From the NCBI RefSeq assembly GCF_009914755.1, contig NC_060929.1: DNA of 64,000 bases; one strand, given 5' to 3'. The notes under the pieces are model-generated. The model did not search any database. It saw only the letters and a list, made by a program, of their open reading frames with translations, and was not told the origin of the DNA. Within the stretch, counting starts at the first letter, position 1. Each line of letters opens with the position of its first letter. Made by a program: the position numbers and the translations under genes. Origin of the DNA: the human T2T-CHM13v2.0 reference genome, Homo sapiens. This document shows positions 23,026 to 32,600 of this stretch, piece after piece.

Positions 23026-23073
23026 AATATGCTACCTTTTCTGATTTCTTTTTTCTTTTTTTTTTTTTTTTTT

Positions 23074-23213
23074 GGTAGAAGGAAGGGCTTTATTCAGCTG
23101 GGAACATCAGTAAGCTACTGCCTTAAAATCCGAGCTCCCCGAGTGCACAATTTCTGTCCCTTTTAAGGGCTCACAACACTAAAGATTTCACATGAAAGGG
23201 TCGTGATTGATTT
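23074..23213 (-). mobile_element. 3'-transduced fragment of an LTR2-family (HERV-E/Harlequin) LTR, U3 end plus R
   Basis: Non-L1 sequence between the L1 (AAT)n tail (23214-23230) and the final polyA, inside the TSDs. Minus strand reads AAATCAATCACGACCC...GAGCCCTTAAAAGGGACAG...CTCGGGGAGCTCGG...GAATAAAGCCCTTCCTTCTACC; AATAAA at 23089-23094. Confidence 0.85.
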
Positions 23214-23430
23214 ATTATTATTATTATTATACTTAAAGTTTTAGGGTACATGTGCACAACATGCAGATTTGTTATATATGTATACATGTGCCATGTTGAT
23301 GTGCTGCACCCATTAACTGGTCATTTAGCATTAGGTATATCTCCTAATGCTATCCCTCCCCCCTCCCCCCACCCCACAACAGTCCCCGTTGTGTGATGTT
23401 CCCCTTCCTGTGTCCATGTGTTCTCATTGT

Positions 23431-27246
<3,816 letters not shown>

Positions 27247-27309
27247 TATGATGTTAGCTGGTGATTTTGCTTGTTAGTTGATGCAGTTTCTTCCTAGCCT
27301 TGATGGTCT

Positions 27310-28647
<1,338 letters not shown>

Positions 28648-29671
28648 CTTTGTGGTTTTATCTACCTTTGGTCTTTGATGACAGTGATGTACAGATGGGT
28701 TTTTGGTGTGGATGTCCTTTCTGTTTGTTAGTTTTCCTGCTAACAGACAGGACCCTCAGCTGCAGGTCTGTTGGAGTTTTCTGGAGGTCCACTCCAGACC
28801 CTATTTGCCTGGGTATCAGCAGCAGTGGCTGCAGGACAGCAGATATTGGTGAACCGCAAATGCTGCCGTCTGATCGTTCGTCTGGAAGATTTGTCTCAGA
28901 GGAGTACCCGGCCGTGTGAGGTGTCAGTCTCCCCTACTGGGGGGTGCCTCCCAGTTAGACTACTCAGGGGTTAGGAACCCACTTGAGGAGAGAGTCTGCC
29001 CGTTCTCAGATCTCAAGCTGCGTGCTGGGAGAACCACTATTCTCTTCAAAGCTGTCAGACAGGGACATTTAAGTCTGCAGAGGTTATTGCTGTCTTTTGT
29101 TTGTCTGTGCCCTGCCCCTAGAGGTGGAGCCTACAGAGGCAGGCAGGCCTCCTTGAGCTGTGGTGGGCTCCACCCAGTTTGAGCTTCCAGGCCTCTTTGT
29201 TTACCTGCTTAAGCCTGGGCAATGGCGGGCGCCCCTCCCCCAGCCTTGCTGCAGCCTTGCAGTTTGATCTCAAACTCCTGTGCTAGCAGTGAGCGAGGCT
29301 CTGTGGGTGTAGGACCCTCCGAGCCAGGTGAAGGATATAAGCTCCTGATGTGCCGTGTGTTAAACCTGTTGGAAGAGCACAGTATTAGGGTGGGAGTGAC
29401 CCGATTTTCCAGGTGCCTTCTGTCACCCCTTTCTTTGACTAGGAAAGGGAATTCCCTGACCCCATGTGCTTCCCGGGTGAGGTGATGCCTCGCTCTGCTT
29501 TGGCTCATGCATGGTGTGCTGCACCCACTGTCCTGCACCCACTGTCGGGCACTCCCCAGTGAGATGAACCCGGTACCTCAGTTGGAAATGCAGAAATCAC
29601 CCGTCTTCTGTGTCGCTCACGCTGGGAGCTGTAGACTGGAGCTCTTCCTATTTGGCCATCTTGGCTCCACC
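28648..29671 (-). promoter_or_regulatory. L1PA4-type 5'UTR including the ~129-bp segment (~28775-28903) associated with ZNF93 binding
   Basis: Compared with the 5'UTR at 11329-12228 there is an extra block GTTTTCTGGAGGTCCACTCCAGACC...GTCTCAGAGG between GTCTGTTGGA and TACCC.GCCGTGTGAGG. Confidence 0.8.
29222..29485 (+). CDS. ORF0: L1 antisense ORF0, open frame of 87 aa (expression unknown)
   Basis: MAGAPPPALLQPCSLISNSCASSERGSVGVGPSEPG... matches primate ORF0; ATG start; GT donor dinucleotides retained at 29328 and 29413. Confidence 0.6.
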   Translation: MAGAPPPALLQPCSLISNSCASSERGSVGVGPSEPGEGYKLLMCRVLNLLEEHSIRVGVTRFSRCLLSPLSLTRKGNSLTPCASRVR

Positions 29672-32600
29672 ACCTTTTCTGATTTCTGACCATCTTAAGT
29701 CTCAGGAACATGAGCAAACTCTTCTGTTGGGATTAAGAAAAAAGATTTCCCTTCAAGACTTGATTTTAGCCTACAGTGAATTTTTATGACCAAGTTATTA
29801 ACCCCTGAAAAATGGGATATATAATGGAAACACTGATAGATTCTTAATGTTAGCTGTGCTGGCAGGCACCTATATATTAGCCTTAATAGTGTCAAATTGT
29901 GAAACTAAAGTGATTGAAAACCTACTAACTTACACTTAAGGAATCCCTGCTTCAATAGGTTTTGATATCTCCCTCATTTGAATGATTTTTCAGGCTGTTT
30001 TAAAGACTAGTGTCCTGTATTTGTGAGAATGAGAGTTACAATACTATAGGATTTTGTGAACATCATAAACTTAGAACAGCATATTCATTCCTGAATGGCT
30101 CAAGACTCAGTGCTTTTTTTTCCTATGTAGGAAATTTACCTGCATAAAAATCTTGAGTTATCCAGCCATAAATTCTATAGCCTGAAGTCTTTCTTCTTTA
30201 CCTCCCATTTTTATGCATTTTATTCATTTTTCTATTGGCTCATTGAACAGCTGAAGGGGATAACAATGTAATTTCATGAACAGTGACCAAAAAGAGAAGA
30301 AAATATCCTTGACTTGGGCAGATAAGTGGGCTCTTCACACTGTAATATTACAGCTTGAACCCAGACTTTCACTGGCTTGATCTCATTACATAAGCTATTC
30401 CCTGCAACTGTCTTCTGCTATGGCTTCTTCATGTGACCTGACAGCCCATATACAGATGTAGCAGTAAATACACGCTGCCAATGCTAAACAAAAAAATTCC
30501 CTATCGTCATGTTTATCAGGATAAATGTGTTGCCAGATGCATTCTTCCTGAGTTGATATTAACAGAGCATGGCAAATGTCATCTCTTCTTCCTCAAGGGG
30601 TTCTTCTGAAGCCCTCATTTGGCATTTGAAAACATTGAACATGGTTGGATAGACCCAGATGCATTCTCTAACAGAACTTATAGAAACATGGAGAATAGCT
30701 TCATCCTATCAAGTATTATATTATTTTAAGGCTATTCGGACATGAGGTAGAAAAATCAAAATACTTTCACCCTGAACCAACTGTTATACACAGCACAACA
30801 AGAAAAAACAAATTGGTCATTACAGAAAATTTGGAAATCCCCTGCTTAAGGGCCTTGGGGACATGGGAAGCCATTTGTCACTGATTGTTGTGTTTTTCAA
30901 GAACAATTAGAGCAAAATCATATAAACATCATGGATTGAGAAATATAATGCTGGTCCTTATTTCAGATGTATGTGTTTAAAAATCACACACAACAGATAT
31001 AGAAAATAGCAATAGTACCAGGATGCAAGAAGTATGTTTATGCAGCTCCATTACAAATACTATCCTAAACAGAATTTGCATGGATGGAGTTTTCCCATAT
31101 CCTTTATAAGCTACTAGGAACAATGCAAGAATTTCAAGTAACCACCCAGCTTTCCATTTTCCATCACTGAAATGCTTTACTCTTTGCATATAAACTTCTA
31201 GCTGTGGCTGACGGCTGTAAGCCCATTATATTTCAACTGTCATCTGGCAGCGGAGATTCAATCCATTGCTTCAATCACAGTGGCCTGTCTTCTCTAGCTC
31301 TGGGAATTACACTAAAGTGCATGATTTAAATGTCTTCACTGTCAAATTATTGTTGTTTAGTTCATCAAGATAGATTTTTAAAACTCATGGGAAAAATATG
31401 CCCTAAAAAGTATTGTTTTGTTATAGGAAAGAAAAGTATTTCAAAATCAACAGTTGCTCAAAGGTCTCAAATTAGTTTTATTCATAATGCTAGGGTTTCC
31501 TAAATGTGAGGTAACAGAATAATAATTACCAAATAAGCCAAATGCTTAATGTGTAAAAGGCCCACTTCAAATATTTTGGTAGGAAAACATAGTGTTTTGA
31601 ATAATTGGAAGTTTATCAACTCTTTGCCTGTTAGTTCATTGCCCTCCCAAGATCATTTCTCATTCATTTTGTACTACATTTGTTGGGCAAGTGCTCTGCA
31701 CCAGACATTGTGCAAGGCAGTGGGAACAAGATAAACAAGACAGAGTCTCTGCCTTCTAGGAACTAGTAAAAGTAAGAGAACAGGCTTTGATTTATGACAC
31801 TGTAAGTCATTATTTCTTTGTCACAAAAAGAAAACACAGCTACCTGACAGTGGAGAACCAGGAAAAAACATGGTAGCCAACTTTGTACAATCATGCCAGG
31901 TTTCTTTTAGGTTTCCCTACGCACCACAGCATACACCACCAGAGGATGCCTACAGTTGCTCTCAACCTTTTATTTACCCAGATATGCCTGAGGGGTGTGA
32001 CAAACTTCCATCAGTAATTGCAACTCATTTTGGCAGTAACTTTCAAGGCAGGCAAGTGTGCAGAAATGGGTAATGGGAAAGTATCAGAGGACATAGAAAA
32101 CTCTGTGTTTGGGAAAGGCCCAGAGCTGGTTTATATTGCGCCCTTCATTTCCCTTAAGAACCACTAAGAGGTCTACCATGCAGAATTAAGCTGTGCAAGT
32201 GGGACGAGTTTCCATGTGTGCCCTGTATAATTAAGAAAGGTGATTAAGAAGCTAACTATGAAGCATAAGTATAAATTGATCCACTTACCCTCTCCACTCC
32301 AGGGAACCCATGCTTTCTATTTGAGAAAAGCAGATTCCCTCTTATCTCCTCATATGACTCTTCTACCTAAGTTTTTTGGCTCTAATATTTTCCTGGGCTT
32401 TACTAAGAACAATGCAGACAATTTTCAGATTTGGGATTTGGAAATTCTTATTCCACTTCTGGAAGCACTCCCGCAGAATATCTGACAAAGCCCAGAAGTT
32501 TACATAAGCCAGATCTCTAGGGCTAGTGAGAGAATAAGACTCACCTAGACATAACTACAAAATGGAAGCTCAAATACATCTGAGTAGACATATAGATGAA

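What the first reader, a model, noticed from the sequence alone, without database searches (positions are those of the whole stretch)
23050..23230. L1 3' transduction of an ERV LTR fragment that supplied the polyA signal
Seen on the minus strand: L1 3'UTR, (AAT)n old tail, 140 bp of non-L1 sequence with AATAAA (23094-23089), 15 nt, new polyA, TSD. The whole block lies inside the 16-bp TSD pair. The 140 bp match my recollection of the LTR2 family (HERV-E/Harlequin) U3-R region, including the TATA-like CCCTTAAAAGGG. Inference: the parent L1PA4 sat in sense orientation inside an LTR2-type LTR, read through its own weak signal and terminated at the viral polyA site. This tags a specific ancient source element and moves LTR core-promoter sequence without retroviral integration.
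Basis: partly seen in the sequence, partly recalled or inferred. Interest (0 to 1): 0.8.

Follow-up and report, generated by a model that had tools for sequence, protein, structure and literature searches.

The report
L1 carrying an HERV-E LTR2B tail piece
An old, broken full-length L1 retrotransposon carries about 137 bases of an endogenous-retrovirus LTR between its own end and its poly(A) tail, most likely an ordinary case of L1 copying its downstream flank.

Summary
A minus-strand full-length L1 (29671 to about 23211; ORFs broken; Alu nested at 27526-27831) ends in (TAA)6-A. It is followed by 136-139 bp of non-L1 DNA (23213-23075) containing AATAAA (23094-23089), then a 24-nt A-rich tail. 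An exact 16-bp target-site duplication (29687-29672 and 23049-23034) encloses the whole unit.

The extra DNA is positions 300-438 of a 482-bp HERV-E LTR. I place it in subgroup LTR2B using two published anchors. It stops where the other copies examined continue into 44 bp of U5, which is the LTR's poly(A) site. No other part of that LTR occurs in the 64-kb window.

The best reading is a classical L1 3' transduction from a source L1 that sat in sense orientation inside an LTR2B (about 0.8).

- Four pattern scans of this genome (three for the 3' junction, one for the 5' junction) found no source or sibling.
- "L1PA4" could not be tested here.
- The "TATA-like/core promoter" claim is doubtful, because a review's boundary ranges put that motif inside R.
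- About 10% of reference L1s carry transductions, so this is a routine instance.

In passing, two SVA-like elements elsewhere also end at the same LTR2B poly(A) site.

The parts
29672..29687 (-). 5' copy of the 16-bp target-site duplication (AGAAATCAGAAAAGGT)
   Evidence: identical to 23049-23034, and these are the only two copies in the window.
23211..29671 (-). Full-length L1 (L1PA-type, ORFs broken). About 6.46 kb including a nested Alu, about 6.15 kb without it.
   Evidence: Pfam Transposase_22 (27888-28145), Tnp_22_dsRBD (27641-27952), Exo_endo_phos (26785-27273) and RVT_1 (25022-25372), in separate broken frames listed; the 5' 822 nt align end to end with full-length relatives at 91-92%; the 3' 300 nt are 88-94% identical to 20 relatives.
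27526..27831 (+). Alu nested in the L1 ORF1 region, antisense to the L1, with an A25 tail
   Evidence: two Metazoa_SRP-like halves at 27526-27640 and 27660-27808 (E about 1e-11, below the gathering score). A-run at 27807-27831. The name 'Alu' is from recall.
23211..23230 (-). L1 3' terminus, A(TAA)6A, including the L1's own AATAAA (23216-23211). This is the 'old tail'; there is no pure poly(A).
   Evidence: The commonest form among 20 relatives has 4 TAA units. Four of the 20 have 6-12 units, and three of those four are followed by at most 4 A's before the flank.
23075..23213 (-). HERV-E LTR2B fragment, LTR positions 300-438 of 482 (end of U3 plus R up to the poly(A) site). The first 3 nt (AAA) are shared with the L1 end.
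   Evidence: (96.4% over 139 nt). The LTR2B label comes combined with PMC4379568 and PMC1950553.
23089..23094 (-). AATAAA of the LTR, which served as the poly(A) signal of the mobilised RNA
   Evidence: It corresponds to LTR positions 419-424, and the tail starts 15 nt downstream.
23050..23073 (-). New poly(A) tail (A18 G A5). It is preceded by a single C at 23074, where the other LTR copies have A.
23034..23049 (-). 3' copy of the 16-bp target-site duplication

Best explanation
This is a classical L1 3' transduction.

The proposed sequence of events is as follows. A full-length source L1 sat in sense orientation inside an HERV-E LTR2B, between LTR positions 299 and 300, and had an (AAT)n-type tail. 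Transcription from the L1 ran past the L1's own AATAAA. It continued through 136-139 nt of the LTR and was cleaved and polyadenylated at the LTR's own R/U5 poly(A) site, 15-17 nt after the LTR AATAAA. That RNA was then inserted here by target-primed reverse transcription, producing one A-rich tail and one 16-bp TSD around the whole unit. The copy later decayed: its ORFs broke and an Alu inserted into it.

Shown directly: the anatomy, the LTR2B identity, the exact end at the LTR poly(A) site, and the absence of the rest of the LTR locally.

Inferred: the existence and position of the source element, and read-through as the way the two parts were joined.
For: - One exact 16-bp TSD encloses L1, fragment and tail.
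- The fragment is collinear with LTR positions 300-438 and stops at the poly(A) site. All 15 distinct other copies inspected (17 loci, of which two pairs were the same place) continue there into a 44-nt GT-rich U5 ending in ...CTGCTACA, and continue upstream into U3.
- No other part of the LTR (positions 1-299 or 439-482) occurs anywhere in the 64-kb window. Only matches of 22 nt or less with E >= 0.8 were found. The piece therefore arrived with the L1 rather than being a resident LTR that the L1 split.
- Only AAA separates the (TAA)6 run from the LTR piece. That is too short for the A-rich TSD that a second insertion into an L1 tail would leave.
- An (AAT)n tail with almost no poly(A) occurs in 3 of 20 related full-length L1s, so such a source tail is plausible.
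- The LTR site CTC/AAAT loosely resembles the L1 endonuclease target TT/AAAA. This motif is recalled, so the point is weak.
- The same LTR2B poly(A) site terminates 3' extensions of two SVA-like elements elsewhere in the genome. This shows it works as a terminator for read-through RNAs that L1 then mobilises.
- Prior: about 10% of reference L1 insertions carry 3' transductions (PMC4862182, Background passage).
Against: - No source or sibling was found. Junction pattern AWAAATCAATCACGACCC hit only this locus at 0 mismatches. At up to 1 mismatch it gave 5 other hits: two ordinary LTRs and three unrelated sequences.
- The 28-nt junction pattern at up to 2 mismatches hit only this locus and one ordinary LTR.
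- The pattern for LTR joined to the L1 5' end gave 0 hits, but it needed 25 exact bases, so its sensitivity is low.
- None of the 20 closest full-length relatives by 5' UTR carries the piece.
- There is no long internal poly(A) between the L1 and the transduced piece. Such a tract is a usual hallmark of transductions.
- A control junction search for one SVA-like case also failed to find its source. These scans are therefore not a sensitive test, and the negative result weighs little either way.
- Outgroup genomes could not be examined.
Confidence: 0.8

Rival explanations
1. Template-switch chimera. L1 reverse transcriptase began on a polyadenylated RNA ending in an LTR2B R region, either an HERV-E transcript or a host RNA terminated in an LTR2B. 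After 136-139 nt it jumped to the 3' end of an L1 RNA, using the AAA microhomology, and copied that RNA to its 5' end.
For: - It gives the same final anatomy: one TSD and one tail.
- There is a 3-nt microhomology at the junction and no internal poly(A).
- No genomic source with the junction was found.
- L1 chimeras with other RNAs are documented (10.1101/2025.02.02.635956, abstract read; PMC4476161, search listing only).
Against: - In the described chimeras (U6/L1 and similar) the L1 is the 3' partner that primes first and the other RNA is the 5' partner. This is from recall and the abstract of 10.1101/2025.02.02.635956. Here the order is reversed.
- It would need trans use of a non-L1 RNA followed by full 6-kb synthesis, which should be far rarer than read-through.
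- A jump onto a polyadenylated L1 RNA should usually retain some poly(A) at the junction.
- An (AAT)n tail without poly(A) is a feature of genomic copies. That fits a genomic read-through template better.
Confidence: 0.1
2. Two separate events. The L1 inserted first with its own tail. Later a 5'-truncated retrocopy of an LTR2B-terminated RNA inserted into that tail.
For: A-rich L1 tails are preferred L1 endonuclease targets (recalled). The 3' tail is interrupted (A18 G A5), which could be read as a new tail plus an old remnant.
Against: - A nested insertion should leave an A-rich TSD of roughly 7-20 nt on both sides of the fragment. Upstream there are only 3 A's, and these also align to the LTR.
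- It also requires the hit to land at the very first bases of the old tail.
Confidence: 0.05
3. The L1 inserted into an LTR2B that was already resident at this locus, and the fragment is what is left of it.
For: None beyond adjacency.
Against: - The rest of the LTR is absent from the whole window.
- The fragment is followed by poly(A) rather than U5.
- The 16-bp TSD lies outside the fragment, and the 5' flank of the L1 is not LTR.
Confidence: 0.01

Closest known systems
L1 3' transduction (read-through of the weak L1 poly(A) signal, first shown experimentally by Moran and colleagues in 1999 and surveyed in the reference genome in 2000; recalled, not read here). Frequency statement taken from PMC4862182.
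   Same: L1 end, then non-L1 flank, then a new AATAAA and tail, all inside one TSD pair.
   Different: The transduced flank is itself a repeat (an LTR2B R region), so it cannot be mapped to a unique source. The internal 'old tail' is an (AAT)n run without poly(A). No source was found in this genome.
HERV-E LTR2B long terminal repeat
   Same: The fragment is 94-98% identical to LTR2B copies over positions 300-438, including the AATAAA and the cleavage region.
   Different: Only 139 of 482 nt are present. Positions 1-299 (most or all of U3) and U5 are missing. The piece was delivered by L1 machinery rather than by retroviral integration, so there are no LTR ends and no 4-6-bp integration duplication.
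SVA 3' transductions
   Same: Two SVA-like elements, at G000:C1:108.71 Mb and G000:C9:89.11 Mb, carry LTR2B pieces (positions 349-440 and 1-440). These end in poly(A) at the same LTR position.
   Different: The carrier there is a non-autonomous VNTR element rather than an L1. They are independent events with different junctions.
L1 chimeric retrocopies made by template switching (U6/L1 type)
   Same: Two unrelated RNAs are joined in one insertion with one TSD.
   Different: In the known type L1 is the 3' partner. Here L1 is the full-length 5' partner.

Membership tests
L1 3' transduction | A complete L1 3' end is followed directly by non-L1 sequence | tested here: met
   The L1 homology to 20 relatives ends at the (TAA)n-A run. 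The following 136-139 nt match an LTR instead.
L1 3' transduction | The extra segment ends with its own poly(A) signal and a poly(A) tail | tested here: met
   AATAAA at 23094-23089, then 15 nt, then A18GA5.
L1 3' transduction | A single target-site duplication flanks L1 plus extra segment | tested here: met
   exact 16-mer at 29687-29672 and 23049-23034, with only 2 copies in the window.
L1 3' transduction | A source locus where an L1 is followed by the same sequence, continuing past the poly(A) site | tested here: inconclusive
   Searches found none in this genome. The scans tolerate only 0-2 mismatches. A control search for an SVA-like case also failed. The source may be lost or never fixed.
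L1 3' transduction | The empty orthologous site lacks both the L1 and the extra segment | not testable with these tools
   No other primate genome is held.
HERV-E LTR2B | Close similarity to LTR2B rather than LTR2 or LTR2C (subgroups are 75-83% alike per PMC4379568) | tested here: met
   - The fragment is 95.0% and 96.2% identical to the two LTRs of locus L052.
- The L052 LTRs have a 481-nt 5' LTR and a 5221-nt start-to-start spacing, matching the entry 'HERV-E.UBE2D2, LTR2B' in Table 1 of PMC4379568.
- The published LTR2B-consensus primers of PMC1950553 match a sister copy at positions 1 and 412-441 with 0 mismatches after in-silico C-to-T conversion.
- LTR length is 482 nt against a 483-nt consensus.
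- A copy of another subgroup matches at only 78%.
HERV-E LTR2B | Proviruses with this LTR use a primer-binding site complementary to tRNA-Glu | tested here: met
   - an 18-nt site lies 4 nt after the LTR in L018.
- its complement (one Y) has 165 genomic matches against 9 for the control. Four of these lie at the expected distance after LTR hits.
- 3 of 3 loci fetched for that motif are tRNA-Glu genes, with the motif at their 3' end.
L1PA4 subfamily | Diagnostic substitutions of the subfamily consensus | not testable with these tools
   No repeat library is available here. The only relevant data are a length of about 6.15 kb without the Alu and 88-94% identity to relatives. These are compatible with a middle-aged L1PA.
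Template-switch L1 chimera (U6/L1 type) | L1 is the 3' partner, 5'-truncated at the junction, and the other RNA is the 5' partner | tested here: not met
   here L1 is the full-length 5' partner and the LTR-derived RNA is the 3' partner.

The most novel reading that the evidence does not exclude
The junction was made at the RNA/cDNA level, not by read-through. L1 reverse transcriptase primed on an HERV-E/LTR2B-terminated transcript and switched onto the 3' end of an L1 RNA. That would give a 'reverse-order' L1/ERV chimera, which is why no genomic source exists.
Probability: 0.1. Interest if true: 0.35.

Novelty: new member of a known kind. Interest (0 to 1): 0.12.

Why it matters
It matters little. 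This is a clean, well-bounded example of how L1 read-through spreads short pieces of other repeats, here the R region and poly(A) signal of an HERV-E LTR2B. It also shows that ERV poly(A) sites act as terminators for read-through from L1 and SVA-like elements. For annotation, the point is that this 139-nt 'LTR2B' hit is not a solo-LTR remnant but part of the L1 insertion. Nothing suggests present function: most or all of U3 is missing, the L1 is dead, and the unit lies antisense in an intron of a predicted lncRNA.

Tried and rejected
- **Source or sibling search.** I ran four pattern scans of the window's own genome and a 120-nt junction query (40 of 1286 candidates scored). Only this locus spans the junction. 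The other hits were ordinary LTRs or unrelated sequence.\n- **Source search by L1 body similarity.** The best 5' UTR relatives are only 91-92% identical (40 of 6431 candidates scored). I fetched the 3' ends of 20 of them, and none has the LTR piece. This approach cannot single out a parent at this age.\n- **Control for the junction method.** I used an SVA-like element that sits on LTR2B position 349. I did not open those papers, and I consulted no supplementary tables.

Full report
**What is in the sequence**

All positions here are read on the minus strand. An L1 3' UTR ends at 23230-23211 in A(TAA)6A. Next come TCAATCACG... and 137 nt of non-L1 sequence, running to 23074. This stretch contains AATAAA at 23094-23089, with 15 nt after it. 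The tail is A18-G-A5 (23073-23050). It is followed by AGAAATCAGAAAAGGT at 23049-23034.

The same 16-mer lies at 29687-29672, directly against the L1 5' end at 29671. The two copies are identical and are the only two in the 64-kb window.

**The carrier is a dead full-length L1**

Broken minus-strand frames between 23431 and 28145 match Pfam families:
- Transposase_22 (1.7e-40)
- Tnp_22_dsRBD
- Exo_endo_phos (4.4e-13)
- RVT_1 (8.9e-14)

A plus-strand element with two SRP-RNA-like halves and an A25 tail (27526-27831) is nested in the ORF1 region. I call it an Alu from recall. Without it the L1 is about 6.15 kb.

Its first 822 nt align end to end with other full-length copies at 91-92% identity (40 of 6431 candidates scored). 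Its last 300 nt are 88-94% identical to 20 of those relatives. I could not test the label L1PA4, because no repeat library is available here. The numbers fit a middle-aged primate L1.

**The extra piece is HERV-E LTR2B, positions 300-438 of 482**

A 140-nt query found 1218 first-look candidates in the window's own genome. Forty were scored, and the 39 non-self hits were 96-98% identical.

I inspected 17 fetched loci, which represent 15 distinct places. In all of them the homology continues upstream (...GCTTGCTC before AAATCAATCACG). It also continues downstream of ...CTTCTAC into a 44-nt GT-rich stretch ending ...CTGCTACA, after which the flanks differ.

Aligning one copy against 17 loci gave an element of 482 nt:
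- Thirteen alignments run from about position 1 to 482.
- Two start later.
- Two run on into proviral interior.

Against that copy, the window holds only positions 300-438, at 23213-23075 (96.4%, E 1.6e-62). Nothing else from the LTR is present beyond chance matches of 22 nt or less.

The family name rests on tests rather than recall:
- **Primer-binding site.** The copy in L018 is followed, after 4 nt, by an 18-nt site. Its complement occurs 165 times in the genome against 9 for the control. Four of these lie at the expected distance after LTR hits. All 3 loci I fetched for that motif are tRNA-Glu genes with the motif at their 3' end. This is the criterion behind the letter E (PMC4379568, Introduction passage).
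- **A published LTR2B locus.** Locus L052 has two such LTRs. The first is 481 nt, and their starts are 5221 nt apart. This matches exactly the entry 'HERV-E.UBE2D2, LTR2B' in Table 1 of PMC4379568 (passage read). The fragment is 95.0% and 96.2% identical to these two LTRs.
- **Published primers.** The LTR2B-consensus bisulfite primers printed in PMC1950553 (passage read) fit the L018 LTR at positions 1 and 412-441, with no mismatch after C-to-T conversion.
- **Length and subgroup separation.** The review gives the LTR2B consensus as 483 nt and the three subgroups as 75-83% alike. A copy of another subgroup matches the fragment at only 78%.

**Where the piece ends**

The tail begins at LTR position 438-440, which is 15-17 nt after AATAAA (LTR 419-424). 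This is where the other copies go on into U5. The review places the poly(A)-signal-defined R/U5 boundary of the three consensus LTRs at positions 399-435, which fits.

Scanning the genome for the R end followed by A's found two further loci. Both have a GC-rich 37-49-nt VNTR, a roughly 490-nt unique part ending in AATAAA, and an A-rich old tail. This is the SVA architecture; the name is from recall and from the abstract of PMC12593883. Each is then followed by LTR2B sequence that stops at the same place before poly(A):
- One carries LTR2B positions 349-440.
- The other carries a 48-nt flank plus LTR2B positions 1-440.

So this LTR poly(A) site has terminated read-through RNAs that L1 machinery then inserted, on at least three independent occasions.

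**Mechanism**

The simplest account is a 3' transduction. A source L1 lay in sense orientation inside an LTR2B, between positions 299 and 300. Its RNA ran past the L1's own AATAAA (23216-23211) and ended at the LTR's site. That RNA was then inserted here.

The anatomy rules out two alternatives:
- A resident LTR split by the L1 is excluded because the rest of the LTR is absent, the fragment is followed by poly(A) rather than U5, and the TSD lies outside the fragment.
- A later insertion into the L1 tail is unlikely because only three A's lie upstream of the fragment, and these also align to the LTR.

The lack of an internal poly(A) tract is unusual for a transduction but not a problem here. 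Among 20 related full-length L1s, four have 6-12 TAA units (the commonest number is 4). Three of those four abut their flank with at most four further A's.

**What argues against, or remains open**

I found no source and no sibling:
- The 18-nt junction pattern hit only this locus at 0 mismatches.
- At up to 1 mismatch it gave five other hits, two ordinary LTRs and three unrelated sequences.
- The 28-nt pattern at up to 2 mismatches hit only this locus and one ordinary LTR.
- A pattern for LTR joined to the L1 5' end gave nothing, though it needs 25 exact bases.
- A 120-nt junction query matched in full only here.

These scans are not very sensitive. A control search for the source of one SVA-like case also failed. 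For the other SVA-like case I found only a 94.7%-identical flank-plus-LTR locus with no SVA upstream.

A template-switch chimera gives the same end product and cannot be excluded. In that scenario reverse transcription starts on an LTR2B-terminated RNA and jumps onto L1 RNA. I rate it at about 0.1, for two reasons: it reverses the partner order of known L1 chimeras, and it needs a rarer chain of events. Outgroup genomes, which would settle whether the L1 and the fragment arrived together, are not available here.

**The promoter claim**

CCCTTAAAAGGG lies at LTR positions 344-355. The review states that the transcription start defines the U3/R boundary at positions 298-337 across the three consensus LTRs. 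By that account the motif is inside R, and the transduced piece carries at most about 38 nt of U3 and none of the upstream U3. I could not find a mapped start site for LTR2B in the passages I read. The claim that core-promoter sequence was moved is therefore untested and doubtful.

**Comparison and verdict**

This is an ordinary member of a well-known class. About 10% of L1 and SVA insertions in the reference carry 3' transductions (PMC4862182, Background passage). Roughly a quarter of somatic insertions in one cancer study do (PMC13009371, abstract start in the search listing only).

Two literature searches listed nothing on this locus (listings only). I did not open those papers or any supplements, so catalogues of reference transductions in supplementary tables may well include it.

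Interest is low. The value of the check is mainly for annotation: the 139-nt LTR2B hit belongs to the L1 insertion and is not a solo-LTR remnant.

Noticed in passing
L053 (G000:C1:108708494-108711518), about 1380-1535: An SVA-like element (GC-rich VNTR, a roughly 490-nt unique part ending in AATAAA, and a patterned A-rich tail) is followed by LTR2B positions 349-440 and A16. This looks like a 3' transduction from a source sitting inside an LTR2B. A junction search found no source in this genome.
   Followed up: partly
L055 (G000:C9:89111703-89114727), about 1030-1545; L059 (G000:C19:20297393-20300472): A second SVA-like element carries a 48-nt flank plus LTR2B positions 1-440 and then an A-rich tail. 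A chr19 locus holds the same flank plus a whole LTR2B including U5 (94.7% over 475 nt), but with no VNTR element directly upstream. Several partial copies of the flank lie at C19:19.96-20.91 Mb, suggesting a duplicated region.
   Followed up: partly
window 27526-27831 (+): An Alu-like SINE with an A25 tail is nested antisense in the ORF1 region of the L1. Rfam also reports sub-threshold mir-1268 and mir-3135 matches inside it, which are Alu-derived look-alikes.
   Followed up: no
G000:C1:160.55-160.73 Mb: The tRNA-Glu 3'-end motif recurs about every 7.4 kb across some 25 units, indicating a tandem tRNA gene array. One unit was confirmed as tRNA-Glu(CTC) by ARAGORN.
   Followed up: partly
L042, L045, L048 (3' ends of related full-length L1s): Some L1s of this group end in (TAA)7-12 with almost no poly(A) before the flank. 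In this lineage the terminal TAA repeat, rather than poly(A), often forms the tail.
   Followed up: no
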